This document shows positions 23,634 to 57,637 of a DNA stretch of 64,000 bases, piece by piece. Origin of the DNA: Candidatus Staskawiczbacteria bacterium RIFOXYD1_FULL_32_13 (GTDB taxonomy: Bacteria > Patescibacteriota > Minisyncoccia > Minisyncoccales > Staskawiczbacteraceae); contig MHPU01000039.1 in NCBI GenBank assembly GCA_001820485.1, positions 30,904-94,903 of the forward strand. Direction: 5' to 3'. How positions within the stretch are numbered: the first letter of the stretch is position 1; every line of letters starts with the position of its first letter. Position numbers and translations under genes: made by a program. The notes under the pieces are model-generated. The model did no database searches. It was not told where the DNA came from and worked only from the letters and a program-made list of their open reading frames with translations.

Positions 23634-23749
23634 GTTAAGGTTAATCGGGTTTAGCGTGGGGAATTTTATTTATTAAAAATAGAATATCAACAGGGGCTGA
23701 AAGCCGGTTAACCTTAACAATTAACCCTTCGCTTTTCAGCCCCTTTTGG
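23634..23749. promoter_or_regulatory. Candidate res/recombination site upstream of the resolvase
   Basis: GTTAAGGTTAATCGG (23634-48) and CCGGTTAACCTTAAC (23704-18) form a 15-bp inverted repeat with one mismatch. A 12-bp-stem hairpin GGGGCTGAAAGC/GCTTTTCAGCCCC spans 23693-23743. Confidence 0.4.
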
Positions 23750-28630: not shown

Positions 28631-28907
28631 AAAATTTTAATTCATTTGTTATTATATTTGTCGCTTGGCGACGACATATTTACAATTTAATAATACATCA
28701 TATATAATAAAAAAGCAAGAGATAATAATTAACTGTTAGACCTGTTGCTAAATAAGACTCGTGCCTAAATTTGAAATTTTGACTGCAAATTTATAAAAAT
28801 TCGTCGGCTTGCCTAAAGGCAAACTTTCTCATTTTTCTAAATTTTCGTACAAAATTTCTGCATTTCGCTTACTCGTCTTATCTAACAACAGGTCTATTTA
28901 TAAAATT

Positions 28908-31513: not shown

Positions 31514-31778
31514 ATAGTCCGCAGACGGTTTTGCCTCGCAAATATGCGAAATAATTTGGAGTTTTGCTCCAAGCAAGCCATAGGATCAAGTTTTAGATAA
31601 TAGCGTAGTTTGTTCTACTACAACCTACTCACTACTACCTACAAACTAAATTCGTCTGCGAAAAAGGTCGCAGTTTTTTTATTTCAAGGCGATACCAATG
31701 AAACGAATAACATATACCAATGAAACTAATATTAGTATAATTGGTATGAAATTAGTATATTAGTATCGCGATGACGAA
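31514..31778 (+). promoter_or_regulatory. Candidate L10 (rplJ) leader autoregulatory RNA
   Basis: The roughly 265-nt leader has a long-range inverted repeat, GTCCGCAGACG (31518-28) against CGTCTGCG (31645-52). A GGTCGCAG hairpin plus TTTTTTT gives an attenuator-like terminator. Confidence 0.45.
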
Positions 31779-32844: not shown

Positions 32845-32851
32845 AACACTC

Positions 32852-32884
32852 GTCATTGCGAGGAGCAAAGCGACGAAGCAATCT
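32852..32884. repeat. Truncated copy of the GTCATTGCGAGG MITE-like repeat
   Basis: It reads GTCATTGCGAGGAGCAAAGCGACGAAGCAATCT, which is only the left arm. Confidence 0.55.
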
Positions 32885-32908
32885 AAACAGGGGTAAAACC
32901 CTGTTTTT
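32885..32908 (+). terminator. Rho-independent terminator after rplL
   Basis: The stem AAACAGGG/CCCTGTTT has a GTAAAA loop and is followed by TT. Confidence 0.65.
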
Positions 32909-33029
32909 GCTTGCAAAATTTTATAGTCGGAGTAACATTAACTAATATGACCAACGCACAACCGACATGGTGCCGTGTTGCGTCGCTGGCCAATGTCCTT
33001 TCTTTTAGGCATTTGCCTGGAGGGGTACG

Positions 33030-33263
33030 ATGGCCGATTTGGAATTTACTAAGAAAAATTTTCGGGCGTTGTATTGGCTGTGGAAAAACTACTTGTCTTC
33101 TGCTAAAGGAATGGCAACTGAAGTAGTTGAAGGGGCTGGGCGGTTGTATAGTGTTTTGATCTTTCAAATTCATTGTGAGGACAAAAACTCTGAATTTGAC
33201 AAGCCGATTTCCGATCGTGCACGGATGTTGTGGCAACAATTCTTGGCATATATCACTATTTGA
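33030..33263 (+). CDS. Hypothetical protein in GC-rich islet 4
   Basis: It is a 77-aa ORF in a roughly 45% GC block. GGAGG lies 6 nt upstream of the ATG. A hairpin GGGCTTTGCGGAGCCC plus a T-tract follows at 33290-33318. Confidence 0.4.
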   Translation: MADLEFTKKNFRALYWLWKNYLSSAKGMATEVVEGAGRLYSVLIFQIHCEDKNSEFDKPISDRARMLWQQFLAYITI

Positions 33264-33289
33264 CTTTCGTGATATTGCCAAGAAGGAAG

Positions 33290-33318
33290 AGGGCTTTGCG
33301 GAGCCCTTTTTGTTTTTT
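33290..33318 (+). terminator. Rho-independent terminator of the islet-4 ORF
   Basis: The stem GGGCTTTG/CGGAGCCC is followed by TTTTTGTTTTTT. Confidence 0.6.
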
Positions 33319-33342
33319 ATATTTTTTGGTAATATATAATAT

Positions 33343-34686: not shown

Positions 34687-37152
34687 ATGTCAATTTTAAC
34701 AAAAATTTTTGGTGATCCAAATGAAAAGTATATAAAGAGTTTACAGCCAATTGTAGAAAAAATAAATTCTTTTGAAATAGAATTTTCAAAACTTTCATTA
34801 CAAGAAATTAAAGAAAAAACCTTTCGACTTCGCTCAGGGCTAGCAAGTGGGAAAACTTTAGACGATATTCTCCCAGAGGCTTTTGCTTTGGTTAGAGAAG
34901 CAGGAAAAAGAACTTTAAATCAAAGGCATTTTGATAGTCAATTAATTGGAGGAATTGTTTTACATCAAGGTAAAATTGCAGAAATGAGAACCGGAGAAGG
35001 TAAAACTTTGTCTGCTACTTTGCCAGCTTATTTAAATGCACTTTTAGGTAAAGGAGTTCATATTGTTACAGTTAACGAATATTTAGCAAAAAGAGATATG
35101 ATTTGGATGGGACAGATTTATAATGCATTAGGATTAACTGCAGGATGCATTACAAATTCAGGAGGTTTTATTTATGATGAAAACTATAAAAATGAAAACG
35201 AAAAAGATGCAAAGAGAGATATAGTGGGAGGATTTTTAGTGGTGGAAGATTTTTTAAAACCAGTTTCAAAAAAAGAAGCTTATAGTGCTGATATAACATA
35301 TGGAACTAATAATGAATTTGGTTTTGATTATTTAAGAGATAATATGGTTTTTGATTTAGAACAAAAGGCACAAAGAGATTTTAATTTTGCAATTGTGGAC
35401 GAAGTAGATTCAATTTTAATTGACGAAGCAAGAGTTCCTTTAATAATTTCTGGAGAAGCTGAGCCTGCAACTGAAAAATATTCATTATTTGCAAAAATTG
35501 TATCAAGTTTGGAAAAAGAAACAGATTATGTTTTAGATGAAAAATTAAAAACAGTCACTTTTACAGAAGAAGGTCAAAATAAAGTGGTAAATAAGTTGGG
35601 CCAAGATCCTTGGCAAGATAATGACATTACAGCTACTCATCAATTGGAATCAGCTTTAAGAGCTAAGGCTTTGTTTATTAAAGATAGAGATTATGTTGCA
35701 CAAAATGGCGAGATTTTAATTATTGATGAATTTACAGGAAGAATTTTGCCTGGTAGAAGATGGTCAGCTGGTTTGCATCAAGCAGTTGAAGCTAAGGAAG
35801 GAGTAAGAGTGCAACCCGAGTCTGTAACTTATGCCACAATAACTTTTCAAAATTATTTTCGCCTTTATAAAAAATTATCTGGAATGACAGGAACTGCTTT
35901 TACTTCAGCTGAAGAATTTGATAAAGTTTATAAATTAGAAGTAGCAATTGTGCCAACAAATAAAACTATTGTTAGAAAAGATTTGCCAGATAAAATTTTT
36001 AAATCTGAAGCTGGAAAATTTAAGGCAGTTGTAAGGGAAATAAAAGAATTAAATCAAAGGGGCCAACCAATTTTAGTTGGAACAAGATCTGTAGAAAGAA
36101 ATGAATATCTTGGAAGATTACTTGAAATGGAAGGAATTAAGCACGAAATTTTAAATGCCAAAAATCATCAAAGAGAAGGAGAAATAATTGCTCAAGCTGG
36201 CAGAAAAGGAGCTGTAACAATTGCTACAAATATGGCAGGTCGAGGGGTTGACATCATACTTGGTGGCAACCCCGTAGACCCTGAGCATAGTCGAAGGGTC
36301 CGTGAATTGGGAGGTTTACACGTTATGGGTACAGAAAGACACGAAGCTCGCAGAATTGATAATCAATTAAGGGGCAGGTCTGGTAGACAGGGAGATCCAG
36401 GAACTACTCAATTTTTTGTTTCTTTAGAAGATGATTTAATGCGTATTTTTGGAGGAGATAGAATAAAGAATTTAATGACCACTTTCAATGTAGCCGAAGA
36501 CGAACCAATTTCAGCTGGGATTTTGTCCGGTGCTTTAGAGTCAGCTCAAAGTAAAATAGAAGGTTTTAATTTTGATTCTCGCCATCATTTGCTTGAATAT
36601 GATGATGTAATGAATAAGCATAGAGAAATAATATATAAAAAAAGAAATGAATTTTTAGAAAAATCAGTATTGGAAGGCCCGTCCTTGCAACAATATGTTC
36701 TAGAGCTTGTAAAAAAAGCTGGGCACACAGAACAAGAATATTTAAATAAAGAAAAAGAATTAGGTGAGCAAAATATGAGGAATGTAGAGAAATTTGTGTG
36801 TTTAAAAGTTTTAGATACTTTATGGCAAGATCATTTAAGCAATATGGAACATATGAGAGATTCTGTAAGACTTAGAGCTTATGGTGGAAAAGATCCTTTA
36901 GTTGAGTATAAAAATGAGGGACACCGAATGTTTGGCGAACTATTAAAAGAAATGGATTTTGAAATAGCACAAGATATTATGAGTGCTGGTTTAACGAAGC
37001 CATCTCAACAGATTAATACAGATTTGAAAACAGATTTACACAGATCACAGACTGGCGGAAAACAAATCGGGCGGAACGATCCATGTCCGTGCGGAAGCGG
37101 AAAGAAATGGAAAAATTGCGGATTAATTAATGCCCCGGAGCACAAAAAATAA
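34687..37152 (+). CDS. secA: Preprotein translocase ATPase SecA
   Basis: The Walker A reads MRTGEGKT. A DEVDSILIDEARVPLIISG motif is present, and the C-terminal zinc-binding tail reads CPCGSGKKWKNC. Confidence 0.9.
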   Translation: MSILTKIFGDPNEKYIKSLQPIVEKINSFEIEFSKLSLQEIKEKTFRLRSGLASGKTLDDILPEAFALVREAGKRTLNQRHFDSQLIGGIVLHQGKIAEMRTGEGKTLSATLPAYLNALLGKGVHIVTVNEYLAKRDMIWMGQIYNALGLTAGCITNSGGFIYDENYKNENEKDAKRDIVGGFLVVEDFLKPVSKKEAYSADITYGTNNEFGFDYLRDNMVFDLEQKAQRDFNFAIVDEVDSILIDEARVPLIISGEAEPATEKYSLFAKIVSSLEKETDYVLDEKLKTVTFTEEGQNKVVNKLGQDPWQDNDITATHQLESALRAKALFIKDRDYVAQNGEILIIDEFTGRILPGRRWSAGLHQAVEAKEGVRVQPESVTYATITFQNYFRLYKKLSGMTGTAFTSAEEFDKVYKLEVAIVPTNKTIVRKDLPDKIFKSEAGKFKAVVREIKELNQRGQPILVGTRSVERNEYLGRLLEMEGIKHEILNAKNHQREGEIIAQAGRKGAVTIATNMAGRGVDIILGGNPVDPEHSRRVRELGGLHVMGTERHEARRIDNQLRGRSGRQGDPGTTQFFVSLEDDLMRIFGGDRIKNLMTTFNVAEDEPISAGILSGALESAQSKIEGFNFDSRHHLLEYDDVMNKHREIIYKKRNEFLEKSVLEGPSLQQYVLELVKKAGHTEQEYLNKEKELGEQNMRNVEKFVCLKVLDTLWQDHLSNMEHMRDSVRLRAYGGKDPLVEYKNEGHRMFGELLKEMDFEIAQDIMSAGLTKPSQQINTDLKTDLHRSQTGGKQIGRNDPCPCGSGKKWKNCGLINAPEHKK

Positions 37153-37228
37153 CTTTTTTGTAAAAGAAAACCCGGGCCTCGACGAATCAAGGCGCACGGG
37201 TTGAGTACTCGCGATGAGGTTGGTTTTC

Positions 37229-37636
37229 TCAGCACAGAACCAAAACATCGCCGGCTGAGAATCCAAAATCATCCATGTAGAATTGCCAGTCCTCGGGACC
37301 TTCGCCGACCATGGGCTTGGCCCATATTAGCGTGGGGACGCAATTGTCTCCGTCGGTGTAGTACCAGTGTTCCGGAAACACCAAAGTCTTTCCTCGTAGT
37401 TCCGTGGGGATCCTGTCTTTCTGTGTTAGCATGCTTCGGGCATGGCTAGCGCCAGTGCGTTTTCCCAGCTTACCGACGATTCCCACCACTTCCTGACTTT
37501 TCCCACTCTGTTCGATGGGGAAGAAATTGGGTCGGAATTCCTGACCCAACTCGGCCGGCACCTCTCCTTGGCAAACCCAGTCATCCCTGCGCGGTTCCCA
37601 CAAATCAGTCATTCGGAAAACCACATTGGTTTCCAT
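37229..37636 (-). CDS. Hypothetical protein in GC-rich islet 2
   Basis: It is a 135-aa ORF in a roughly 52% GC block. AAGGAG lies 6 nt upstream of the ATG. A minus-strand hairpin plus TTTTTT tail sits at 37153-37195. Confidence 0.4.
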   Translation of the reverse strand: METNVVFRMTDLWEPRRDDWVCQGEVPAELGQEFRPNFFPIEQSGKSQEVVGIVGKLGKRTGASHARSMLTQKDRIPTELRGKTLVFPEHWYYTDGDNCVPTLIWAKPMVGEGPEDWQFYMDDFGFSAGDVLVLC

Positions 37637-37718
37637 TTCGTTCTCCTTGCAATAGGGGGGGTAAAAACTTTAGCACAATTCTATAGTTTTATTATATCAT
37701 ATTATATAATCTTGTCAA

Positions 37719-38945
37719 GTGAAAAATGAAGAAATTTCAAAATCTAACACAAACAGAATAATAGCACATTTGGATATGGATGCATTTTTTGCGAGTATAG
37801 AAGAAGCAGATAGCCCAATTTTTAAAGGAAAACCAATTGCAGTGGGATCTGAGGCGCTAAATGGTAATGGAAGGGGGGTTGTTTCTACTGCAAATTATAA
37901 AGCTCGCGAATATGGTATTCATTCTGCTTTGCCCATTTCACAGGCATGGCAACTCTCACAAAAAGCCAAAAAAGAAGGCAAGGATGAAGTGATTTTTTTA
38001 CCAGTAGATATGGAAAGATATGAGCAAGTATCTTGTGGAATTTATGATATAATAAAAAAATACGCTAATGTTGTGGAACCAGCTAGCATTGATGAATTTT
38101 ATTTCGATTTAACACCCAGTTTGTCATTGCGAGGAGCGACCGAAGGGAGCGACGCGGCAATCCAGAGTAGTAGCACGAATTCTAGATTGCTACGTCGTCC
38201 TGCAAAGGCGGGACTCCTCGCAATGACAGGTGAGGACGATGAGTGGAAACAAGCAGAGAAAATTTGTTTGAAAATAAAAAAAGAAATAAAAGAAAAATTT
38301 AAAATTACTTGTTCTGTGGGCCTTGCTCCTAATAAATTAATTTCTAAAATTGCTGCTGGCAAGAAAAAGCCAGATGGATTTGTTATTGTGCGACAGGAAG
38401 AGGTAGAAGTTTTTCTAGAACCATTGTCAGTGCGTGAATTGCCGGGAGTAGGCCCTAAGACAGGGGAAGTTTTAAGAAAAAATGGCGTAGAAAAAATAAA
38501 AGATTTAAAAAAGTTTTCGTACGAGGATTTATATGATATACTTGGAAAATATGGATTAGATTTGTATTATAAAGCTAAAGGAATTGATGACTCAGAACTT
38601 ATTGAAAGTAGGGAGGTAAAATCTATTGGAGAACAAACAACTTTTGATAAGGACACTCAAGATGCAGTTTATATTGGAGATATTTTTGAAAAACTGTGTT
38701 CTGATGTATTTTTAAGATTTAAAGAATCAGGATTTAAAAGTTTTAAAACAATTGCAATTACTGTAAGATTTAAAGGATTTGAAACAAAAACTACAGCCAA
38801 GACTTTAAAAGAATCAATTAGTAGCGAGAAAATATTTAAATTAGAAGCTTTAAAACTTTTATTACCATATTTAGATAGCAGGAAAAATCCAAATAATAAA
38901 TTAATTAGATTAATTGGCGTTAGTATAAAAAATTTTAATAATTAA
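37719..38945 (+). CDS. dinB: DNA polymerase IV (Y-family) carrying an in-frame 35-aa MITE-derived insertion
   Basis: The N-terminus reads HLDMDAFFASIE. The catalytic SIDEFYFDLT segment is present, and the later motifs are intact. Codons 38123-38227 are the repeat element. Confidence 0.85.
   Translation: MKNEEISKSNTNRIIAHLDMDAFFASIEEADSPIFKGKPIAVGSEALNGNGRGVVSTANYKAREYGIHSALPISQAWQLSQKAKKEGKDEVIFLPVDMERYEQVSCGIYDIIKKYANVVEPASIDEFYFDLTPSLSLRGATEGSDAAIQSSSTNSRLLRRPAKAGLLAMTGEDDEWKQAEKICLKIKKEIKEKFKITCSVGLAPNKLISKIAAGKKKPDGFVIVRQEEVEVFLEPLSVRELPGVGPKTGEVLRKNGVEKIKDLKKFSYEDLYDILGKYGLDLYYKAKGIDDSELIESREVKSIGEQTTFDKDTQDAVYIGDIFEKLCSDVFLRFKESGFKSFKTIAITVRFKGFETKTTAKTLKESISSEKIFKLEALKLLLPYLDSRKNPNNKLIRLIGVSIKNFNN
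38123..38227. repeat. Complete 105-bp copy of the GTCATTGCGAGG...CCTCGCAATGAC MITE-like palindromic repeat, inside the dinB CDS
   Basis: The terminal inverted repeat is GTCATTGCGAGGAG...CTCCTCGCAATGAC. The internal arms GCGACGCGGCAATCCAGAG and CTAGATTGCTACGTCGTC are complementary. Confidence 0.7.
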
Positions 38946-42670: not shown

Positions 42671-42701
42671 AATAATTTTGTAATTTGAAAAGTCTCTTTC
42701 T

Positions 42702-42782
42702 GTCATTGCGAGGAGCCCGCAGGCGACGTGGCAATTTAGAAGTTTGAGATTGCTTCGGCTATTGCGATAGCCTCGCAATGAC
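42702..42782. repeat. 81-bp copy of the MITE-like palindromic repeat
   Basis: It reads GTCATTGCGAGGAGCCCGCAGGCGACGTGGCAATTTAGAAG...CCTCGCAATGAC and lies directly after the secD stop. Confidence 0.65.
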
Positions 42783-42874
42783 GGAAGAGAACTAATTTTG
42801 TAAAAAAAGAGACGCTGGGTCGTCCGAGAAAAATTCGGATTACTCCCAGCGCCATGCTGACGAAAAAGCGGTTT

Positions 42875-43162
42875 TCACGCCGGGTATTCGTCAACTGGAC
42901 GTTGCCACGGTTCTCGCTCATTGCTTTTCGGTCGGCTACGATGATCATCGGTTCCCTGTTTTATTGGGTCGCTTTCTTCCTTTTCTTCCGTGGGTTGTTC
43001 GCCATCGAACAGCACAAGTGCTTCACGATTTGCCAGATCTACGGCGACTATTGAGACCGATCCGCCCCTCTTCAGTGCTTCGTTGAGTCTTCTCACAAAG
43101 CATTCACTCGAGCGACCAGTTTCCACTTCGCGAACTGTTGGTTCTATGAGTTCCACATACAT
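42875..43162 (-). CDS. Hypothetical protein in GC-rich islet 3
   Basis: The 95-aa ORF starts at MYVELI, with AAGGAG 6 nt upstream. A minus-strand hairpin (GCTGGG/CCCAGC) plus TTTTTTTACAAAA lies downstream at 42790-42850. Confidence 0.4.
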   Translation of the reverse strand: MYVELIEPTVREVETGRSSECFVRRLNEALKRGGSVSIVAVDLANREALVLFDGEQPTEEKEESDPIKQGTDDHRSRPKSNEREPWQRPVDEYPA

Positions 43163-43253
43163 AATCATCTCCTTAAAATCAGGGATTCGAAACCATAGAA
43201 ATAATATCAAAAATAAAATTAATTGTCAAATAAAATATTAAAAAAATAAAAAT

Positions 43254-45753: not shown

Positions 45754-47154
45754 ATGGCAAGCAAAATTTACAAAACATATTTTTTCTTTATGCCTTGGGC
45801 AAGGAAGGCATTTTGGGATCCTTTTTGGTGGGCGATTTTATTTGTAGTAATTTTGTTTATTCCTTTTTTAAGACCTTGGGGATGGTTTTTTCTTCCAATG
45901 ATGTTAATTGTGCAACTAAAAGAACTTTATCTTTGGTGGATAATGTGGGATTTTACTTATGCAAAATTCAAATGGGTAGTAATTGAAATGATTCCACCAA
46001 AAGAAGTTTTGGCTCCGTTTAAAGCTATGGAAGATGTTTTTACTAGTCTTTGGCCAATATATGATTCTGGTAATTGGCGTGAGCAGTGGTGTGAGGGAGA
46101 ATTTGCTGAATCAGCATATTGGTTTTCTTGGGAAATTGTAAGTGCTGAAGGATCGGTCCATTTTTATTTAAGATGTCTTGCTCAGCATAGAAGGACTATA
46201 GAATCAATTATTTATGGTCATTATCCGGAAATAGAAATGCGTGAAGTGCCTGATTACTTAAAAGCTATTCCGCAAGATATACCCAACCAAGAGTGGGATT
46301 TGTATGGAGAAGATTGGATGTTTGAAAAAATAGATTGTTATCCTATTAGAACTTATGAAAAGTTTTTTGAGCCACAAGGCGAAAGGATTTCAGCAGAGGA
46401 AAAAAGAATAGATCCAATGGCCTCCTTACTTGAAGGGCTTTCTAGATTAGGTCCAGGTGAGCATTTTTGGATTCAATTTATTACAACTCCAGTTGTTGAT
46501 TCTGAAGTTGGACTTAATGCAATAGCAAAAAAAGAAATTGATAGAATTGCGAGGCGACCTGTTAAAAAAGAGAAAACATTTCTGCAAGATATAGGAGATT
46601 TGTTATATTACTTGATTATGGGACCTACAAAAGAGGGTAGTGGCGAAAAAGCAACTTATAAATTTCTCCCAAGAGTAATGGAGGATGAAGGTGATGATAA
46701 TGAGCTTATGTTAACTCCTGGAGAAAAAGAAGTTTTACTTGGTATTGAAGATAAAATGAAAAAGCCAATTTTTAAATGTTCTGTGAGAGGTGCTTATGTA
46801 GCTAAAAGGGAGAATTGGAGCGGGGCAAGTAAAAATGCTGGGAGAGGTTATTTTGGGCATTTTAAAACAATGCATTTAAATGCTCTAAGATATACTGGTG
46901 ATACAAGACCAAAGACTCATTATCTTTTTAGAAAAAGAAGAGCATATTTTAGAGCAAGAAAAATGTTTAGAAATATTGTTCGTCGTTTTCCTGCAATGTA
47001 TCCAGATATGAAAGCATATACAATACTTTTAAATTCTGAAGAATTGGCAACATTATTTCACTTTCCAAATAAACTTACAGGACTTGTTTCTCCATCAGTG
47101 GCAAGGGTGGAATCAAAGAGAGGTGGACCTCCAGAAAATTTGCCAATAGAATAA
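45754..47154 (+). CDS. Membrane-anchored hypothetical protein (2 N-terminal TM helices and a ~400-aa soluble domain)
   Basis: The N-terminus is rich in W/F with two TM helices, and the remainder is basic and aromatic with no known motif. It is the first gene of the zinc-ribbon paralog locus. Confidence 0.5.
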   Translation: MASKIYKTYFFFMPWARKAFWDPFWWAILFVVILFIPFLRPWGWFFLPMMLIVQLKELYLWWIMWDFTYAKFKWVVIEMIPPKEVLAPFKAMEDVFTSLWPIYDSGNWREQWCEGEFAESAYWFSWEIVSAEGSVHFYLRCLAQHRRTIESIIYGHYPEIEMREVPDYLKAIPQDIPNQEWDLYGEDWMFEKIDCYPIRTYEKFFEPQGERISAEEKRIDPMASLLEGLSRLGPGEHFWIQFITTPVVDSEVGLNAIAKKEIDRIARRPVKKEKTFLQDIGDLLYYLIMGPTKEGSGEKATYKFLPRVMEDEGDDNELMLTPGEKEVLLGIEDKMKKPIFKCSVRGAYVAKRENWSGASKNAGRGYFGHFKTMHLNALRYTGDTRPKTHYLFRKRRAYFRARKMFRNIVRRFPAMYPDMKAYTILLNSEELATLFHFPNKLTGLVSPSVARVESKRGGPPENLPIE

Positions 47155-47179: not shown

Positions 47180-47284
47180 CAGTGTCATTGCGAGCCCCGC
47201 TATAGCGGGGCGTGGCAATCTAGAGTTTGCATATAAAATTCTGGATTGCCACGCTCGCCTGCAGGCTCGCTCGCAATGACACTG
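47180..47284. repeat. 105-bp copy of the MITE-like palindromic repeat (extended TIR CAGTGTCATTGCGAG...CTCGCAATGACACTG)
   Basis: It lies between the 466-aa gene and paralog P1. The internal arms CGTGGCAATCTAGAG and CTGGATTGCCACG pair with each other. Confidence 0.7.
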
Positions 47285-47315: not shown

Positions 47316-49049
47316 ATGCAAAGCGAAACAAAAACACATTCGACAAGCTCAGTGCAAGCTTGTCAAAATTGCAAAAATGACTTTACCATAGAGCCTGATG
47401 ATTTTGTATTTTATGAAAAAATGAAAGTCCCAGCTCCTACTTTTTGTCCGGAGTGTAGGATTATAAGAAGAATGACTTGGAGAAATGAGCGCACACTTTA
47501 TCATAGAAAGTGCGATGCCACTGGAAAAAATATTATTACAATGTTTGCTCCAGAACAGCCGGTTGTTGTTTATGAAAGGGATTATTGGTGGAGTGATTCT
47601 TGGGATCAGCTAGCTTCAGGTCAAGATTATGATTTTTCAAAACCATTTTTTCAGCAATTCCGCGAGCTTTTTGAAAAAGCTCCACTTTCTAATCTTGCTA
47701 ATACTAATATTGTAAATTCTGATTACTCAAATCATAGTTTGAATCTGAAAAATTGTTATCTTTTTTATGCTGGCATGAGATGCGAAGATATGTTATATTC
47801 TACTGGAGCTATGGATTGTAAAAATTCTATTGATCTATATAATGTGGGAAATTTAATACAATGTTACGACGATACTTTGTGTGGAGATCTAAATCGCGTT
47901 TCTTTTTCATATGATAGCGACGAAAGCGTAAATTGTGCATTTTTACATGCGTGCAAAAATATGATGGATTCTTTGGGATGTATAAATTTGCGTAATAAAT
48001 CAAATTGCATTTTTAATCAGCAATATACCAAAGAAGAATATGCAAAAGAACGCGCCAAATACGATTTTGGTAGTTATAAAAATCTTGAGGGATTTAAGAA
48101 AAAATTTGTAGAGTTTAAAAAGCAATATCCGCGACGCCATGGTTTTATTCATAAATGTGCAAATACAATTGGAGACAATATCATAAATTGCAAAAATATT
48201 TATATGGGCTTTGATATTTTTGGAGATGCTCAAGACAGTAAGTACGTTATTCATGGCGCAGAATTTAATAATATTTATGATGGATATGGAATTGGTGCAA
48301 CTCATAGTAACTCCTATGAAATTGTAGACACGGGCGATAATGCCACACTTAATCGGTTTGCTGTTTTTACTCATTCATGTCTAGACACACATTATACTTA
48401 CGCCTGTAAAAATTCCCAAAACTTATTTGGTTGTGTGGGGCTTCGCAGTAAAAGATATTGCATTTTAAATAAACAATATACCAAAGAAGAATATGAGACT
48501 CTGGTGCCAAAAATTATTAATCATATGAATGAAATGCCCTATATTGATGCAAAAGGTAGAGTTTATAAGTATGGCGAGTTTTTCCCAACAGAACTTTCAC
48601 CTTTTGCTTACAATGAAACTATTGCTCAAGAATATTACTCAAAAACTAAGGAAGATGTTTTAGAATCTGGTTTTAGGTGGAGAGAGCCAGAAACAAAAAA
48701 CTATAACATAACCTTAAAACCGCAAGATTTACCAGATCACATAAAGGACGTAACAGATGATATTTTAAATCAAGTAATAGCTTGTGAGCATGAAGGTAAA
48801 TGTAATCACCAATGTATGGGAGCTTTCAAAATTATTGCTTCTGAACTTGCATTTTACCGTGCAATGAATTTGGCTTTGCCAAGGTTGTGTTCTAATTGTA
48901 GGCACTATGCCAGGCTAGCTCAGCGCACGCCGTTTAAGTTGTGGGATAGAAATTGCGCAAAATGTGGAAAAGAAATTAAAACTTCTTATGCACCAGAAAG
49001 GCTAGAAATTATATATTGTGAAAGTTGTTATAATAATGAAGTAGCGTAA
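47316..49049 (+). CDS. Zinc-ribbon-rich paralog P1 (577 aa), unknown function
   Basis: The N-terminal ribbon reads CQNCKNDFTIEPDDFVFYEKMKVPAPTFCPECRIIRR. There are internal duplicated Cys-rich units (...C.NLRNK.NCIFNQQYTKEEY / ...FGCVGLRSKRYCILNKQYTKEEY). The C-terminal ribbons read CSNCRHY...CAKCGKEIKTSYAPERLEIIYCESCYNNEVA. Confidence 0.6.
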   Translation: MQSETKTHSTSSVQACQNCKNDFTIEPDDFVFYEKMKVPAPTFCPECRIIRRMTWRNERTLYHRKCDATGKNIITMFAPEQPVVVYERDYWWSDSWDQLASGQDYDFSKPFFQQFRELFEKAPLSNLANTNIVNSDYSNHSLNLKNCYLFYAGMRCEDMLYSTGAMDCKNSIDLYNVGNLIQCYDDTLCGDLNRVSFSYDSDESVNCAFLHACKNMMDSLGCINLRNKSNCIFNQQYTKEEYAKERAKYDFGSYKNLEGFKKKFVEFKKQYPRRHGFIHKCANTIGDNIINCKNIYMGFDIFGDAQDSKYVIHGAEFNNIYDGYGIGATHSNSYEIVDTGDNATLNRFAVFTHSCLDTHYTYACKNSQNLFGCVGLRSKRYCILNKQYTKEEYETLVPKIINHMNEMPYIDAKGRVYKYGEFFPTELSPFAYNETIAQEYYSKTKEDVLESGFRWREPETKNYNITLKPQDLPDHIKDVTDDILNQVIACEHEGKCNHQCMGAFKIIASELAFYRAMNLALPRLCSNCRHYARLAQRTPFKLWDRNCAKCGKEIKTSYAPERLEIIYCESCYNNEVA

Positions 49050-49061
49050 AAATAAAAAAAT

Positions 49062-51563
49062 ATGGCAAAAGATATAACTTATATCGCTCAAACAAATTTT
49101 AGAGGAGCTAATCAGAAATTTGGAATTAGAAGAACTGACAGACGTCAGCATATGTATGTGATTGGAAAAACTGGAACTGGTAAAACTCAATTTCTAAAAA
49201 ATATGGCTTTGCAAGATGTAGAAAATGGCGAAGGTCTTGCAGTTATAGATCCTCATGGGGAATTTGTTGAAGAAATTTTAGAAAGCATTCCAAGACACAG
49301 AATGAAAGATGTGGTTTATTTTAATCCTGCAGATATGGATTATCCGGTAAGTTTTAATATTATGGATGTGCAAGACCCAAGATATAAGCATTTGATTGCT
49401 TCTGGTTTAATCGGTATTTTCACTAAGATTTGGGCAAATGTTTGGTCAGCTCGTATGGAATATATTTTAGCAAATAGTATCTTAGCTTTATTAGATACCC
49501 CAGGAACCACTCTTTTGGGTATACCAAGAATGCTGGTAGATAGAGATTATAGACAGAAAATTATAAATAATTTACAAGATCCAGTTGTAAAATCATTTTG
49601 GATTAATGAATACGAAGAATGGGAATCAAGGTACAGAAATGAAGCCATAGCTCCTGTGCAAAACAAAGTGGGGCAGTTTTTAAATGTTTCTTTTGTAAGA
49701 AATATTGTAGGGCAAGCAAAAAATACCATAGATATTGAAGATATAATGAACAACGGAAAAATTTTATTAGTTAATGTTTCAAAAGGAAGAATTGGAGAAG
49801 ATAACTCAGCAATTTTAGGAGCAATGATTATAACAAAAATACAATTATCAGCTATGGAACGTGTAAGAATTCCTGAAGGCGATAGAAGAGATTTTTATTT
49901 GTATGTTGATGAATTCCAGAATTTTGCTACTGATTCATTTCGTAATATTTTGTCTGAGGCTAGAAAATATAGGTTAAATTTAATTATGGCGCATCAATAT
50001 ATTGGCCAATTAGTTACAGACAAAAATACTGCTGTAAGAGATGCTGTTTTTGGAAACGTGGGGACAGAGGTTTCTTTTAGAGTCGGAGCTGAAGATGCTG
50101 AATTTTTAGAAAAGGAATTTACTCCAGAATTTTTACAGGATGATTTTGTGCGCTTAGCAAATCGAGATACTTATATAAAACTTATGATAGGAGGTATCAC
50201 TTCAAGGCCATTTTCTGCTAAAACTATTACTATACCTGCAATTCCTAAAGACGACATAAAGCGAAATGAATTGATTAATCTTACAAGAGAAAAATATGCT
50301 CGTACTAAGCAAGCAGTTGAAGATGAAATTAACCGCTGGGCTGCTAACTTGGATGTTTTAAGCAAAGGTGCTGTACCTGTTTCGTGGCAAAATAATCAAA
50401 AGCAAGTGCAAGGTCATAAACAACAAGATGGAACAATGCTTTATGATGCTGTATGTTCTAGTTGTGGTAAAAAAACGAAAGTTGTTTTTGAACCTACTTC
50501 AGGTAAACCTGTTTATTGTAAAACCTGTTTTAAGAATAAGAAACCCGACAAAAGCCAAAGGCATTTTGACGAGCCCGCCACAATTCCCCAACAAAAGCAA
50601 GAGCATTTTGATGGGGATTTAGGCAGGGATGAGTCAGATAGCGCTTTGGCAAGTTTAGGGATAGAGTTTGGTTCATCAAAAATAGTAAAAAAAGTGGAGC
50701 AAAGTCGACCCCAGCAAAAACCCTTCGACTCTGCTCAGGGCAAGCCTCAGCAAATTAGTAATCAAAATAAAGTTTCAAATATAGAAAATAAATTATCAGC
50801 AAAGCCTCAGGTTCGAGAATCAGCTAAAGTTGAAAATATTGATTTTGCTCATCAAAAATATAATACAGAAAGGGATAATGGTTATAGACCGATGCAAAAT
50901 AATACAAAAAGAGAAATAAATTTGGCAGAATTGAGAAAAGTGCTTGCAGAATCCTTGGAAAAAGAGGAGAAAACCGACAAAAGCCCTAAAGGGTATTTTG
51001 ACGAGTCCGCCACAATGCCAGCTGAGCGGGCTTTAGGCGGGGAAGAAAAAATAAAGCAAGAAAATAAGATTGAGAAAACAGAAACACCACCACAACCTGA
51101 AGTTATTTTGCCTGTCATTACTGCGGAAGCAGGAATCCAGAGTGAAGTTAAAAAATCCTGGATTTCCAATCGGGCTGAGAATGATACTGAAAATAAAGAA
51201 GTAAAAGAAGTAAATATAAAAGAAGAAGAAAAAAAATCAGAGGTACAAGAAGTCAAACTTTTAGAAAACCCATTAGAATTAAAACCTGAGTTACAACCAC
51301 AGAAGCAGAAAGTTGTTGTACCCGTCATTCTCGCAAAAGTAGAAATTCAGAGTGAAATTCAAAAACCTTTAATTCTTGATCAAGTTGGGAATGACAATAG
51401 AGAAGAAAAAAAGACTGAAAGTTCTGATGACGAGCTTCAAAAAAGAATTGCATTGGAAAAAATGGCAGATGAGGCAATGAATATGATGGCAATTGGAAAT
51501 GATGATGATAAGAAACAATCAAAAAAAGGAGTAATAAATCCTGGTGAAACAATAAAGTTTTAA
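49062..51563 (+). CDS. VirD4/TraD/TraG-like (T4CP-like, FtsK-HerA superfamily) P-loop ATPase A with a low-complexity repeat tail and a paralog-type zinc ribbon
   Basis: The Walker A is VIGKTGTGKTQ, the Walker B LYVDEFQNF, and MAHQYIGQL is also present. At aa ~465-495 the ribbon CSSCGKKTKVVFEPTSGKPVYCKTCFKN appears. The C-terminal ~300 aa contain imperfect repeats (VVPVILAKVEIQSEIQK / ILPVITAEAGIQSEVKK). Confidence 0.65.
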   Translation: MAKDITYIAQTNFRGANQKFGIRRTDRRQHMYVIGKTGTGKTQFLKNMALQDVENGEGLAVIDPHGEFVEEILESIPRHRMKDVVYFNPADMDYPVSFNIMDVQDPRYKHLIASGLIGIFTKIWANVWSARMEYILANSILALLDTPGTTLLGIPRMLVDRDYRQKIINNLQDPVVKSFWINEYEEWESRYRNEAIAPVQNKVGQFLNVSFVRNIVGQAKNTIDIEDIMNNGKILLVNVSKGRIGEDNSAILGAMIITKIQLSAMERVRIPEGDRRDFYLYVDEFQNFATDSFRNILSEARKYRLNLIMAHQYIGQLVTDKNTAVRDAVFGNVGTEVSFRVGAEDAEFLEKEFTPEFLQDDFVRLANRDTYIKLMIGGITSRPFSAKTITIPAIPKDDIKRNELINLTREKYARTKQAVEDEINRWAANLDVLSKGAVPVSWQNNQKQVQGHKQQDGTMLYDAVCSSCGKKTKVVFEPTSGKPVYCKTCFKNKKPDKSQRHFDEPATIPQQKQEHFDGDLGRDESDSALASLGIEFGSSKIVKKVEQSRPQQKPFDSAQGKPQQISNQNKVSNIENKLSAKPQVRESAKVENIDFAHQKYNTERDNGYRPMQNNTKREINLAELRKVLAESLEKEEKTDKSPKGYFDESATMPAERALGGEEKIKQENKIEKTETPPQPEVILPVITAEAGIQSEVKKSWISNRAENDTENKEVKEVNIKEEEKKSEVQEVKLLENPLELKPELQPQKQKVVVPVILAKVEIQSEIQKPLILDQVGNDNREEKKTESSDDELQKRIALEKMADEAMNMMAIGNDDDKKQSKKGVINPGETIKF

Positions 51564-51588
51564 AAAGTTAAGGGTTGGCATATTTAAC

Positions 51589-51672
51589 GTCATTGTGAGG
51601 AGGTTTACAAACCGACGAAGCAATCTCAACGACTAGATTGCCACGCTCGCTTGTGGGCTCGCTCGCAATGAC
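51589..51672. repeat. 84-bp copy of the MITE-like palindromic repeat (variant TIR GTCATTGTGAGG)
   Basis: It reads GTCATTGTGAGGAGG...GACGAAGCAATCTCAAC...CTAGATTGCCACGCTCGC...GCTCGCAATGAC and overlaps the 5' end of cutA. Confidence 0.65.
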
Positions 51673-51682
51673 AATGATAACG

Positions 51683-51988
51683 ATGATTTTTATTTATGTG
51701 CCGTGTCAAAATTTAAATACAGCCAAAATTATTGCTAAGCTTTTAGTTGAGAAAAGGCTAGCAGGTAAAGTGGATATTATGTCCACGGATTCGTTTACTT
51801 GTGGGAACGATGGAGTGTCCGAGATTTCCGGGGCAACCTTGATTATTATGACTATAGATAAACATGTTCAAGCTATAGAGGACATTGTTAGAGAATATTA
51901 TCAAGATGGTATTCCTTGTATGGCTACAATTTCACTTTATCGTTTAAATAGGGATTTTAAAGATTGGTTAATAGGAGCTACAAGTTAG
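51683..51988 (+). CDS. cutA: CutA1 divalent-cation tolerance protein homologue
   Basis: MIFIYVPCQNLNTAKIIAKLLVEKRLAGKVDI...ATLIIMTIDKHVQAIEDIVREY fits the CutA fold pattern. Alternative ATG starts at 51668 and 51674 lie inside the repeat. Confidence 0.55.
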   Translation: MIFIYVPCQNLNTAKIIAKLLVEKRLAGKVDIMSTDSFTCGNDGVSEISGATLIIMTIDKHVQAIEDIVREYYQDGIPCMATISLYRLNRDFKDWLIGATS

Positions 51989-52047
51989 AGTTGTTGAAAT
52001 TACTAAAAAAATTTATGATTATAAATAAAAATTATTTGTTCTATTGC

Positions 52048-52067
52048 AGGTTGTCATATGACAACCT
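52048..52067. promoter_or_regulatory. Perfect 20-bp palindrome AGGTTGTCATATGACAACCT
   Basis: It lies 9 bp upstream of the HTH gene and is a candidate operator. Confidence 0.6.
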
Positions 52068-52075
52068 AATAAATT

Positions 52076-52264
52076 ATGAATCAAATCGTAAAGAGAGATT
52101 TTTATACAACAAGTGAATTAGCTGTTGTGCTAGGAATCAGCAAACAATCTGTGTTAAAAAGAATGCACAATGGTTCGATTAAGGCAATAAAAATGGGGCG
52201 TGATTTTATAATTTTTAAGAAGCATATTAATCTAGAAAAATTGAAATCTATAATCAAACATTAA
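52076..52264 (+). CDS. Excisionase/MerR-superfamily small HTH DNA-binding protein
   Basis: The 62-aa protein reads TTSELAVVLGISKQSVLKRMHNGSIKAIKMGRDFIIF, an HTH_17-like segment. Confidence 0.55.
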   Translation: MNQIVKRDFYTTSELAVVLGISKQSVLKRMHNGSIKAIKMGRDFIIFKKHINLEKLKSIIKH

Positions 52265-52270
52265 AATATT

Positions 52271-52290
52271 AGGTTGTCGTATGACAACTT
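52271..52290. promoter_or_regulatory. Near-perfect 20-bp palindrome AGGTTGTCGTATGACAACTT
   Basis: It is a second copy of the operator-like palindrome. It lies 7 bp after the HTH gene and 41 bp upstream of paralog P2. Confidence 0.6.
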
Positions 52291-52330
52291 AATATTATCG
52301 GGAAAATAATAAATCTAGGTATAAAAAATT

Positions 52331-54064
52331 ATGGATAGTCAAACAAAAAATTGTCAAAATTGCAAGAAAGACTTTACTATAGAATCCGATGATTTTGCAT
52401 TTTATGAAAAAATGAAAGTCCCTGTGCCAACTTTTTGTTGGAAATGCAGAGCAATTAGAAGAATGTGTTTTCGAAATATGCGACAACTTTATATTAGAAA
52501 CTGTGATGCAACAGGTAAAAAAATATTTACTTTAATGCCTCCGGATAATCCGATGCCGGTTTATGATAATGATTATTGGCGTAGCGATGCTTGGGATCCT
52601 ATGAAATACGAAAAAAATTACGATTTTTCAAATGCGTTCTTTGAGCAAATAAAGGAATTATATAATTCTGTTCCATGGGGAATTATGTGGAGTATGGATA
52701 TGGTTAATTGTGAGTATAGTGGTGGGGTTTCCTTTTCTAAAAATTGTTATATGTGTTTTGATTCTGGATACGATGAAGATTGTATGTATAATGTTACAGT
52801 GCTCTATAGCAAAAAATGCCTTGATAGTATAAATTTAAAAGATTGCGAACTTTGTTATTATTGTATTAATACCAATAAGTCATATAAAACATTATTTTCA
52901 CGAAATTGTACTTCTTGTGTAGATGTATGGTTTAGTCAAGATTGTATCGGATGTACAAATTGTTTTGGGTGCAGTGGCTTAAAAAATAAAAGTTATTATA
53001 TTTTTAACGAAGTTTATGACAAGGCGACATACGAAACGAAAATTGCAGATTTAAAACTTGATAGTTGGTCGGGAATAAAAAGTGCCAAGAATCAGGCAAA
53101 AAATTTTTGGGAAAAATGTTCGGTAAAATTTTATCATGGCACTCAGGTAACAAAAAGTTTTGGAGATTATTTATATAATGGTACGGAATTAAGAAACTGT
53201 TTTTTTGTGGGAAATGCGCAGAATATGAAACACTGTCAAAGTGTAATTTATCCCCCAAATCAAGACAGTATGGATGTTACCTCAAGCGAAGGCACTGAAT
53301 TGGCTTATGAGGTATTTTGTTGTGGCAATGGAGTACGTAGATCGATTGGATTGGCTGAATGCTCTAATGTATATGATGCTTATTATTCAATAAACTGCAG
53401 GCAGTCAAATAATTTATTTGGATGCGTGTCTTTAAAAGGTAAGGAATATTGTATCTTAAATAAACAATATACGAAAGAAAAATATCTGGAAATGATTCCT
53501 AAAATTATAAAGCATATGAATGATATGCCATATATTGACGCGCTTGGAAGGGTTTATAAATACGGAGAATTTTTCCCAACGGACATGAGTTCTTATGGCT
53601 ATAATCAATCGCAGGCATTTGAATATTTTCCGATAAATGAGCAAGAAGCCAAAAAACAAGGATATCGTTGGCATGAGGCCAATGAGAGAAGTTACCAAAT
53701 CACTAAAAAATCAAGTGACTTACCAGAAAAAATAGAAGAAGTAAGTGACGAAATTTTAAAAGAAGTTATTCAATGTGAGCACGATGAATTTAAAAAACAT
53801 AAAGATGGATGTAATTTAGAGTGCACCCGCGCTTTTAAGATAACATTACAGGAATTGCAATTTTATAGGCAGATGGATCTACCTTTACCGAGGCTTTGTT
53901 TTAACTGCAGACATATTGATAGGGTTGCTTGGAGAAATCAACCAAAATTATATAAAAGAAAATGTATGAAACCAGGATGTCAAAATGAATTTGAAACTTC
54001 TTACGCTCCCGACAGACCAGAAATAGTTTATTGCGAAGCTTGCTACAATCAAGAAGTTGCATAA
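52331..54064 (+). CDS. Zinc-ribbon-rich paralog P2 (577 aa)
   Basis: It has the same architecture as P1: CQNCKKDFTIESDDFAFYEKMKVPVPTFCWKCRAIRR ... CFNCRHIDR...CMKPGCQNEFETSYAPDRPEIVYCEACYNQEVA. Confidence 0.6.
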   Translation: MDSQTKNCQNCKKDFTIESDDFAFYEKMKVPVPTFCWKCRAIRRMCFRNMRQLYIRNCDATGKKIFTLMPPDNPMPVYDNDYWRSDAWDPMKYEKNYDFSNAFFEQIKELYNSVPWGIMWSMDMVNCEYSGGVSFSKNCYMCFDSGYDEDCMYNVTVLYSKKCLDSINLKDCELCYYCINTNKSYKTLFSRNCTSCVDVWFSQDCIGCTNCFGCSGLKNKSYYIFNEVYDKATYETKIADLKLDSWSGIKSAKNQAKNFWEKCSVKFYHGTQVTKSFGDYLYNGTELRNCFFVGNAQNMKHCQSVIYPPNQDSMDVTSSEGTELAYEVFCCGNGVRRSIGLAECSNVYDAYYSINCRQSNNLFGCVSLKGKEYCILNKQYTKEKYLEMIPKIIKHMNDMPYIDALGRVYKYGEFFPTDMSSYGYNQSQAFEYFPINEQEAKKQGYRWHEANERSYQITKKSSDLPEKIEEVSDEILKEVIQCEHDEFKKHKDGCNLECTRAFKITLQELQFYRQMDLPLPRLCFNCRHIDRVAWRNQPKLYKRKCMKPGCQNEFETSYAPDRPEIVYCEACYNQEVA

Positions 54065-57633: not shown

Positions 57634-57637
57634 GTTT

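What the first reader, a model, noticed from the sequence alone, without database searches (positions are those of the whole stretch)
38123..38227. Palindromic MITE-like element inserted in-frame (35 codons, no stops) within the dinB coding sequence
The Y-family polymerase ORF is continuous through a 105-bp element whose ends are GTCATTGCGAGGAG...CTCCTCGCAATGAC. The insertion lies just after the catalytic SIDE motif (...SIDEFYFDLTP[insert]KQAEKICLKIK). The element adds the sequence SLSLRGATEGSDAAIQSSSTNSRLLRRPAKAGLLAMTGEDDEW, which has a composition foreign to the rest of the protein. The gene was either disrupted and is still full length, or it tolerates a 35-aa loop. An intein-less in-frame repeat insertion like this is rare and suggests selection for frame preservation.
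Basis: seen in the sequence. Interest (0 to 1): 0.75.

Follow-up and report, generated by a model that had tools for sequence, protein, structure and literature searches.

The report
Palindromic repeat element inside dinB gene
A 105-base GC-rich palindromic repeat, one copy of a family found across many bacterial phyla, sits in frame in a surface loop of a DNA-repair polymerase gene of an ultra-small (CPR) bacterium and is most likely translated as a harmless floppy loop, a known kind of event though this repeat family appears undescribed.

Summary
The dinB ORF (37719..38945, 408 aa) reads through a 105-bp element (38123-38227; the palindrome runs 38122-38228) with perfect 15-nt inverted ends, 50-56% GC in a ~30% GC genome. 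It is element-derived: three more full copies and one half copy lie between genes in the same window. The same Y-GTCATTGCGAG...CTCGCAATGAC-R family occurs in Proteobacteria, Bacteroidota, Patescibacteria, Planctomycetota, Chloroflexota and viral contigs. Most DinB orthologues have an 8-residue loop here; the window has 47. AlphaFold gives a confident Y-family fold with the insert disordered, and the catalytic residues are intact. No target-site duplication exists, so it resembles REP/REPIN elements more than a classical MITE. Frame preservation is not remarkable: about 16% of random insertions of family members would keep an ORF open, and in-frame copies also sit in guaA and uvrA elsewhere. 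The closest precedent is the Rickettsia palindromic elements. One point is unresolved: three diverged Staskawiczbacteria dinB genes carry different family members with the left junction at the same nucleotide, and a fourth carrier is known only as protein. This means either old inheritance with repeated loss, or site-preferred insertion. Verdict: a new member of a known kind, of moderate interest.

The parts
37719..38945 (+). dinB (DNA polymerase IV, Y-family) ORF, 408 aa, continuous through the element
   Evidence: ORF. (Pfam IMS, IMS_HHH, IMS_C). (NCBIfam NF002677, 297.6 bits against a cut-off of 256, matched in two stretches split by the insert). (100% identical to a Candidatus Staskawiczbacteria protein).
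38122..38228 (.). Palindromic repeat element in frame in dinB. Canonical family ends are at 38123-38227 (105 bp, 35 codons).
   Evidence: Covariance model R1 scores 60.7 bits, E = 5e-14. GC 0.56.
38122..38136 (.). Left outer arm TGTCATTGCGAGGAG
   Evidence: 15 of 15 bases complementary to 38214-38228.
38214..38228 (.). Right outer arm CTCCTCGCAATGACA. It supplies the LLAMT codons.
38150..38197 (.). Conserved inner stem (CGACGCGGCAATCCAGA / TCTAGATTGCTACGTCG) with a variable loop
   Evidence: inverted repeat I2, 17 nt, 82% complementary. GCAATC / GATTGC is nearly invariant across 42 family members.
38197..38213 (.). Variable side hairpin GTCCTGC-AAAG-GCGGGAC between the inner and outer right arms
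   Evidence: Folds. Other copies have different sequences but a hairpin at the same place.
42701..42783 (.). Intergenic copy, 31 nt after the secD stop codon, followed by a GC-rich island before secF
   Evidence: (60.5 bits).
47183..47281 (.). Intergenic copy, 29 nt after the stop codon of ORF 45754..47154
   Evidence: (65.5 bits).
51588..51673 (.). Intergenic copy, 25 nt after the stop codon of the VirD4-like ORF 49062..51563
   Evidence: (57.5 bits).
32851..32890 (.). Half copy (left outer and left inner arm only), 7 nt after the L7/L12 stop codon
   Evidence: weak R1 hit, 17 bits.
51113..51186 (+). Possible decayed, AT-shifted in-frame copy inside the VirD4-like ORF (peptide PVITAEAGIQSEVKKSWISNRAENDT)
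   Evidence: E = 0.036; sequence; translation. Weak evidence.
51323..51396 (+). Possible second decayed in-frame copy in the same ORF (PVILAKVEIQSEIQKPLILDQVGNDN)
   Evidence: (E = 0.6 on the minus strand, 4.8 on the plus strand). Very weak on its own. It is suggestive only because it repeats the first decayed copy in the same frame.

Best explanation
A non-autonomous, GC-rich nested-palindrome repeat inserted into the short surface loop of the DinB palm domain. That loop lies between the beta-strand ending in the catalytic SIDE motif and the following helix. The element belongs to a REP/REPIN-like family with ends Y-GTCATTGCGAG...CTCGCAATGAC-R.

This copy is 105 bp long, and the frame in which it sits has no stop codon. 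The gene therefore stays open, and the element is translated as a disordered loop of about 36 residues that the enzyme tolerates.

The element is probably a selfish or neutral passenger. Its presence in frame reflects purifying selection: gene-breaking insertions are removed, and insertions that keep the ORF open in a permissive loop survive.

Shown: the element's identity and family, the indel relative to orthologues, the open frame, the intact catalytic residues, and the predicted disorder. Inferred: that the element is translated, that DinB remains active, and how the element moves. A hairpin-recognising, scar-free mechanism like that of Y1/HUH transposases is suggested only by the lack of target duplication.
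For: Multi-copy family in the same window: four full copies and one half copy.

The same family occurs in many phyla and in viral contigs.

Most orthologues lack the segment: 83 of 100 parsable orthologues have an 8-residue loop, against 47 residues here. The syntenic relative L121 has an empty site.

Invariant catalytic residues are retained: D19, D21, D125, E126.

In the AF2 model, residues 138-170 have pLDDT below 50, while the flanks score 83-96. The model core matches Dpo4 and DinB structures with TM-score (target-normalised) 0.82-0.87.

PDB and NCBIfam alignments split exactly at query residues 133-176.

The identical insert-bearing protein is found in several independent MAGs and on 24+8 contigs, so this is not an assembly artefact.

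Diverged orthologues keep an open ORF with an element at this site.

In-frame copies of the same family sit in bona fide guaA and uvrA genes elsewhere.

There is no target-site duplication.
Against: There is no direct evidence of translation or of polymerase activity.

The stable hairpin (-64 kcal/mol as RNA) inside an mRNA could impede translation or provoke cleavage.

The recurrence of the element at the same nucleotide position of dinB in diverged lineages is not predicted by a purely passive 'random insertion plus filter' model.

No mobilising enzyme was identified.
Confidence: 0.75

Rival explanations
1. The insertion is maintained for a function, or by a site-specific mechanism. Under the functional version, the hairpin in the dinB mRNA or DNA, or the extra loop in the protein, is selected, for example as a regulatory structure or a new interaction surface. 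Under the mechanistic version, the family has a real target preference for this site.
For: Three lineages have the left junction exactly 11 nt after the D-L codons, with different element variants: 105 bp, 85 bp, and a 43-nt half copy. A fourth carrier, P0009, is known at protein level only.

The carriers are scattered on the DinB tree, with insert-free sister sequences.

The canonical GC-rich arms are still exact in proteins only about 65-83% identical.

In P0038 the half element replaces native residues at the start of the helix (TDEAIQIC in place of YKKAEKIC). Element-coded sequence can therefore become structural.
Against: Most orthologues do without the insert. None of 80 further CPR dinB loci carried an R1-detectable full copy inside dinB, although L242 carries the P0038-type half copy.

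The flanks of 138 copies show no conserved target motif beyond Y/R at positions -1/+1.

Other, unrelated GC-rich palindromes also occupy this loop, for example in L254, which fits simple permissiveness.

The L322 and L323 copies share a rare GCGAC-TGA-CG feature, seen in 1 of 274 copies elsewhere. That points to common descent, or a shared local subfamily, rather than repeated targeting.
Confidence: 0.15
2. dinB is functionally dead. The insertion disrupted the enzyme, and the ORF is still open only because the event is recent and happened to be in frame.
For: About 16% of random insertions of family members would leave an ORF open, so an open frame alone is weak evidence of function. The perfect arms and high GC suggest a young, or at least undecayed, copy.
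Against: All invariant catalytic and structural residues are retained. The same allele occurs in several MAGs and samples without lesions. Diverged carriers (P0002 type, P0009, P0038 type) have kept full-length ORFs. The insertion point is a loop that varies in length among Y-family polymerases.
Confidence: 0.07
3. The element is an intervening sequence removed after transcription or translation (intron-like or intein-like), so the mature DinB lacks it.
For: The element has a strong, conserved secondary structure. CPR genomes are known, from my own recollection rather than a tool result, to carry insertions in rRNA genes.
Against: No Rfam family matches, including no group I or II intron. The peptide has no intein or any other Pfam domain. 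Every intragenic copy that was found is in frame and stop-free, which would be unnecessary if the element were spliced out. This count has a bias: out-of-frame copies would not appear as intact genes. Most copies are intergenic.
Confidence: 0.03

Closest known systems
Rickettsia palindromic elements (RPEs)
   Same: Both are short palindromic repeats. Many RPE copies are inserted in frame in unrelated housekeeping genes, adding a peptide segment thought to be compatible with fold and function (review PMC10969869). This is the same phenomenon in another small-genome lineage.
   Different: The sequence family and size differ: RPEs are about 150 bp and restricted to Rickettsia (PMC10969869), whereas this family is 70-121 bp. 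Nearly half of the reported R. conorii RPE copies lie inside ORFs, whereas this family is mostly intergenic: only 1 of 4 full copies here and 2 of 79 copies in other low-GC loci are intragenic. This family also spans many phyla.
REP / REPIN elements mobilised by RAYT (Y1/HUH) transposases
   Same: Both have imperfect palindromic units arranged as an inverted doublet that forms a long hairpin. Both are mostly extragenic and often sit just after stop codons. Neither has a target-site duplication (for REPINs this is from my own knowledge, not a paper read here). In both, orphan half units (singlets) coexist with doublets: 80 half copies against 291 full copies here. The REPIN definition is taken from PMC3337134.
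   Different: REPIN families are specific to a species or genus and are tied to a single-copy RAYT gene. Here the arms are identical in sequence across phyla, and no RAYT was seen or could be searched for. The element also carries extra variable side hairpins, giving a three- or four-way junction.
Coxiella burnetii QMITE2 (small, REP-like form)
   Same: It is reported as a REP-like hairpin of about 80-100 nt with BLAST matches in Bradyrhizobium and Rhodobacter (Rhodopseudomonas is also named in the paper's discussion). It sometimes lies in frame within ORFs and is a hot spot for IS1111 insertion (PMC5896051). My scan found the present family in Bradyrhizobium and in a Coxiellaceae MAG, L074.
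   Different: Identity could not be checked. The paper's text and its held supplements contain no sequence, and no Coxiella genome was available to me. This is a lead, not a result.
Natural long insertion at the same loop in eukaryotic DNA polymerase kappa
   Same: In the PDB alignments, the Pol kappa region that matches query residue 179 onward starts at residue 290 in the full-length numbering of 7nv0_A. From memory, the catalytic D/E lie near residue 198, and the intervening segment is disordered in crystal structures. If so, this loop tolerates large insertions.
   Different: This is a native, lineage-wide feature of Pol kappa and is not derived from a repeat. The residue numbers for the catalytic site come from memory and not from a tool result.

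Membership tests
Y-family DNA polymerase IV (DinB), the host gene | IMS catalytic core, HhH thumb and little-finger domains | tested here: met
   Pfam PF00817, PF11798, PF21999, PF11799. NCBIfam NF002677, 297.6 bits against a cut-off of 256. Foldseek TM-score (target-normalised) up to 0.87 to Dpo4/Dbh.
Y-family DNA polymerase IV (DinB), the host gene | Catalytic acidic residues (DMD motif and SIDE motif) retained | tested here: met
   D19, D21, D125 and E126 are invariant columns in the 25-sequence alignment.
Classical MITE (deletion derivative of a DDE-transposase insertion sequence) | Terminal inverted repeats, small size, no coding capacity of its own, multiple copies | tested here: met
   Conserved 11-15-nt arms, length 70-121 bp, four full copies in 64 kb.
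Classical MITE (deletion derivative of a DDE-transposase insertion sequence) | Target-site duplication flanking each copy | tested here: not met
   Across 138 copies, direct-repeat counts are at or below chance for 1-8 nt. Instead, position -1 is C or T in 131 of 138 copies and position +1 is G or A in 134 of 138, so the palindrome simply extends by one base.
Classical MITE (deletion derivative of a DDE-transposase insertion sequence) | A parent insertion sequence with the same terminal repeats | tested here: inconclusive
   No transposase family is enriched in 240 element-bearing loci, and no IS-split copies were found. However, the loci are only about 8 kb each, and whole genomes were not searched.
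REP/REPIN | Two inverted palindromic units forming a hairpin, with singlets as decay products | tested here: met
   Alignment and consensus fold. Individual folds. 291 full copies against 80 orphan half copies. A half copy lies at 32851.
REP/REPIN | Predominantly extragenic location | tested here: met
   Three of the 4 full copies in the window are intergenic. Of 79 copies in low-GC loci, 77 are not inside recognisable genes.
REP/REPIN | A cognate single-copy RAYT (Y1 transposase) gene in the same genome | not tested
   Only part of the window's ORFs were scanned, and none is a transposase. The rest of the genome is not available here.
REP/REPIN | A sequence family restricted to a species or genus | tested here: not met
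   Exact 11-nt arms and a near-invariant inner stem are found in Alpha- and Gammaproteobacteria, Bacteroidota, Patescibacteria, Planctomycetota, Chloroflexota, Desulfobacterota, Ignavibacteriota and viral contigs.
Rickettsia palindromic elements | Sequence membership in one of the RPE families | not tested
   No RPE sequence was available. Host range and length differ. The resemblance is functional only.
Intein or self-splicing intron | Intein splicing domains, or a group I/II intron RNA fold | tested here: not met
   No Pfam hit for the insert peptide. No Rfam hit at the gathering threshold or at E <= 10 apart from chance matches.
Any described RNA family (Rfam 15) | A covariance-model match at the gathering score | tested here: not met
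   There is no match over the element in the window or anywhere in 17 element-bearing loci from other phyla.

The most novel reading that the evidence does not exclude
The GTCATTGCGAG nested-palindrome family may be an undescribed, pan-bacterial mobile or functional DNA/RNA module. Its arms stay identical across at least eight phyla and viral contigs, which would imply a widely shared recognition machinery. It re-occupies, or is maintained at, one exact nucleotide position of dinB in diverged Staskawiczbacteria. That would indicate scar-free, site-preferring insertion and excision, or selection on the element itself, and the element-coded peptide occasionally becomes part of the protein structure (the half copy in P0038).
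Probability: 0.15. Interest if true: 0.75.

Novelty: new member of a known kind. Interest (0 to 1): 0.45.

Why it matters
The finding shows that in-frame colonisation of housekeeping genes by palindromic repeats, classically a Rickettsia curiosity, also happens in CPR/Patescibacteria, and with a repeat family that is shared across phyla.

It gives a concrete example of how repeat insertions can lengthen surface loops and even replace native residues, which is a route to new protein sequence.

It has practical consequences. Such inserts inflate apparent divergence and can confuse orthology, structure prediction and pseudogene calls in metagenome-assembled genomes.

If the same-site recurrence reflects targeting or scar-free excision, it would point to an uncharacterised mobilisation system for a very widespread element.

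Tried and rejected
Rfam. Gathering-threshold search of the whole window, permissive search of the element, and 17 loci from other phyla: nothing matched the element.

Pfam on the insert peptide and on typical family translations: nothing.

Literature search by sequence strings found only chance primer matches. A search combining CPR terms with MITE/REP terms found no relevant paper.

Checking whether Coxiella QMITE2 is the same family failed, because no sequence is held in the paper's text or supplements.

A 97-aa junction fragment as a protein query, meant to census DinB proteins carrying the insert, returned only 4 candidates and no hits. A phmmer search of the 48-aa insert against 1.84 billion representatives returned 0 hits. 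Short peptides are below the power of these tools.

DNA for the P0002, P0009 and P0004 contigs was unavailable. A cluster member, P0126, gave L322 instead. The metagenome scan with P0002 did not return its own contig.

Clustering ORFs from 240 element-bearing loci, to look for an associated transposase, found only phage structural genes and ABC proteins.

A plasmid-collection BLAST found only three Novosphingobium records.

I considered integron attC sites, because two copies border GC-rich orphan-gene islands. I rejected this: the ends do not match the attC core (GTTRRRY, recalled from memory), and the islands are unrelated to each other.

I considered intrinsic terminators. The scan does not call the elements as terminators.

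Full report
WHAT IS THERE

The window is about 30% GC. It comes from a Candidatus Staskawiczbacteria (CPR/Patescibacteria) genome: the DinB protein is 100% identical to proteins from several Rifle-aquifer MAGs.

The ORF 37719..38945 (+) encodes a 408-aa Y-family DNA polymerase IV. It matches Pfam IMS, IMS_HHH and IMS_C and NCBIfam NF002677 at 297.6 bits, above the cut-off. Inside it, 38122-38228 is a GC-rich (0.56) palindrome with perfect 15-nt arms, TGTCATTGCGAGGAG / CTCCTCGCAATGACA. It also has a conserved inner stem, CGGCAATCC...AGATTGC, and a small side hairpin.

The segment folds far better than shuffled sequence, both as RNA (-63.8 kcal/mol, z = -7.1) and as DNA (z = -6.3).

THE SEGMENT IS A REPEAT ELEMENT, NOT NATIVE DinB SEQUENCE

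The end motif is over-represented in the window: 10 matches against 1.8 expected. A covariance model built from 42 family members finds four full copies with filters off:
- 38122-38228, inside dinB
- 42701-42783
- 47183-47281
- 51588-51673

It also finds a half copy at 32851. The three other full copies lie 25-31 nt after the stop codons of plus-strand genes, and the half copy lies 7 nt after one.

Among the 120 best DinB homologues, 83 of 100 parsable sequences have an 8-residue loop at this place, whereas the window has 47 residues. A syntenic relative, L121 (secA-dinB-CAP), has an empty site...GAT TTA TCA TCA GAT TGG....

WHERE THE INSERT SITS IN THE PROTEIN

PDB and NCBIfam alignments break exactly at query residues 133-176. 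This corresponds to the stretch between residues 110 and 114 of the 7yll_A DinB structure.

An AlphaFold2 model built on the orthologue alignment gives a strand at 126-130 (FYFDL, directly after the catalytic D125/E126). Residues 138-170 have pLDDT below 50. A confident helix follows at 171-194. The core matches Dpo4, Dbh and DinB structures with TM-score (target-normalised) 0.82-0.87. The invariant residues D19, D21, D125 and E126 are all present.

The insert is therefore a disordered excursion from a surface loop of the palm domain. In human Pol kappa, the region equivalent to the following helix starts at residue 290. From memory, this reflects a long disordered native insertion at the same loop.

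THE FAMILY

The loci came from:
- Alphaproteobacteria (Bradyrhizobium, sphingomonads, Rhodospirillales)
- Gammaproteobacteria (including Coxiellaceae and Solimonas)
- Bacteroidota (Mucilaginibacter, Pedobacter, Flavobacterium)
- Patescibacteria
- Planctomycetota
- Chloroflexota
- Desulfobacterota
- Ignavibacteriota

The inner stem, CG(AA/TG/CG)GCAATC / GATTGC(TT/CA/CG)CG, was not part of the search pattern, yet it is nearly invariant. Between the conserved stems sit variable side hairpins, whose sequences differ while the pairing is kept. Lengths run from 70 to 121 bp with no bias towards multiples of three: 49, 49 and 35 copies for length mod 3 = 0, 1 and 2.

Flanks of 138 copies show no target-site duplication. 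Instead, position -1 is C or T and position +1 is G or A, which extends the palindrome by one base. Orphan half copies are common: 80 against 291 full copies.

This anatomy is that of a REP/REPIN-like element (PMC3337134) rather than a classical MITE with a target-site duplication. Two things do not fit REPINs: the cross-phylum identity of the arms, and the absence of any identified RAYT.

No Rfam family, no Pfam family for the peptides and no paper containing the sequence was found. The small, REP-like form of Coxiella QMITE2 is reported to have 83-100-nt matches in Bradyrhizobium (PMC5896051). It may be the same family, but I could not verify this.

HOW SPECIAL IS THE IN-FRAME STATE?

It is not very special. 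Across 272 distinct family members, 48% of orientation/frame combinations are free of stops, and 16% are both stop-free and a multiple of three in length. For the dinB copy, 2 of 6 combinations are open.

Among 79 copies in loci with GC of 0.5 or less, two lie in frame inside genuine genes. One is guaA (L035, NCBIfam 684 bits). The other is uvrA (L042, 1198 bits). In both, the family profiles split at the insert.

The window may hold two old, AT-shifted in-frame copies in the C-terminal tail of a VirD4/TraD-like protein. The evidence is weak.

In-frame palindromic insertions are a textbook feature of Rickettsia (RPEs) and are also noted for ERIC and QMITE elements (PMC10969869; PMC5896051). 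Frame preservation is what purifying selection leaves behind. It is not evidence of a special mechanism.

THE UNRESOLVED PART

Four DinB lineages carry family sequence at this loop: the window (P0001), P0002, P0009 and P0038.

DNA is available for three of them. In each, the left junction is exactly 11 nt after the D-L codons:
- window: ACACCCAGTTT|GTCATTG
- L322 (P0002 type): ACTTCGTCAGT|GTCATTG
- L323/L242 (P0038 type): TCTTTTTTATC|GTCATTG

The inserts themselves differ: 105 bp in the window, 85 bp in L322, and only the left half (43 nt) in L323. In L323 the half copy is fused to the helix codons and replaces the native KNYKKAEK.

On a neighbour-joining tree the carriers are patchy. P0001 groups with insert-free P0004, P0009 is basal to that clade, and P0038 sits in a distant clade whose 82%-identical sisters have the consensus loop.

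L322 and L323 share a 3-nt GCGAC-TGA-CG feature. It occurs in only 1 of 274 distinct full-length copies collected, and that one is the L322 dinB copy itself. This suggests common descent of those two copies, or a shared local subfamily.

None of 80 further CPR dinB loci from the metagenome scan gave an R1 hit inside dinB, and only two elements were found in the 425 kb searched, which also included L121. One of those loci, L242, does carry the P0038-type half copy, which scores below the R1 threshold.

There are two possible readings. The first is an old insertion followed by many clean losses. Scar-free excision is expected for hairpin-recognising Y1-type transposition, and that expectation comes from my own knowledge, not from a tool result. 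The second is repeated insertion at a preferred position. I cannot decide between them.

Other unrelated GC-rich palindromes also occupy this loop, for example in L254. Permissiveness of the loop is therefore certainly part of the story.

VERDICT

The claims of rarity and of special selection for frame do not hold, and 'MITE' should be replaced by 'REP/REPIN-like palindromic element without target duplication'.

It is a new member of a known kind of event. The interesting by-products are the breadth and conservation of the repeat family and the same-site occupancy in dinB. Translation of the insert, activity of the enzyme and the mode of mobilisation remain inferred.

Noticed in passing
Genome-contig loci L001-L120 and viral-contig loci L122-L241: The GTCATTGCGAG...CTCGCAATGAC nested palindrome is present with identical arms and a near-invariant inner GCAATC/GATTGC stem in at least eight bacterial phyla and in many viral contigs. 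No Rfam family, Pfam family or paper describing it was found.
   Followed up: partly
L035:4466-4543 and L042:2835-2921: In-frame copies of the same family lie inside genuine guaA (GMP synthase, GATase domain) and uvrA genes of low-GC MAGs labelled Gammaproteobacteria. The NCBIfam profiles split at the inserts.
   Followed up: yes
L323:3326-3427 (also L242), P0038 cluster: Only the left half of an element remains in this dinB. It is fused in frame to the following helix and replaces the native KNYKKAEK with ...TDEAIQ. This is a possible case of repeat-derived sequence becoming structural.
   Followed up: partly
window 51113-51186 and 51323-51396: There are two weak, AT-shifted matches to the element model inside the C-terminal low-complexity tail of an 833-aa VirD4/TraD-like ATPase with a CxxC-x17-CxxC domain. 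They read in the same frame, as PVITAEAGIQS...RAENDT and PVILAKVEIQS...VGNDN. They may be old in-frame copies.
   Followed up: partly
window 37051-37675, 42784-43250, 32890-33340, 3076-3525: GC-rich islands (0.44-0.59, against 0.30 for the genome) are wedged between conserved neighbouring genes: secA|dinB, secD|secF and L7/L12|murB. Each holds an orphan minus-strand ORF of 111-169 aa with no family hit and no similarity to the others. Two of them have near-perfect sigma-70-type promoters (37718..37691, 12 of 12 matches; 43229..43201, 11 of 12 matches). Two islands start next to a palindromic element or half element. Relatives L322 and L323 have secA directly abutting dinB.
   Followed up: partly
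Alignment A1 and L254:2224-2280: CPR DinB orthologues carry many other short, GC-rich-looking in-frame inserts in loops, for example PQRDPAKGG, PPAG, LAGSGARLARRQV and RFAVEVGRGNDAKE. L254 has a different palindrome, CCGAGAGCCGAGCTCTCGG...CCGAGAGCTCGGCTCTCG, in the same loop as the finding.
   Followed up: no
window 47316-62290: A family of five paralogous genes of about 577-587 aa (47316, 52331, 55185, 58421, 60533) shares 64-90% DNA identity in blocks. One member has a weak C-terminal treble-clef zinc-finger hit. Their function is unknown.
   Followed up: no
window 17020-17140: A LOOT RNA (Rfam RF03000) match at 91.5 bits, well above the gathering score.
   Followed up: no
window 28737-28896, 2979-3018, 31689-31769, 23627-23724, 62294-62329: These are further self-complementary stretches, found as inverted self-matches in blastn, that do not belong to the GTCATTGCGAG family.
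   Followed up: no
L063:2729-2849; L153:8521-8631; L234:774-893: Some loci show tandem partial duplications of the left arm, for example four consecutive CGTCATTGCGA units in L063. This suggests slippage or abortive events at the element end.
   Followed up: no
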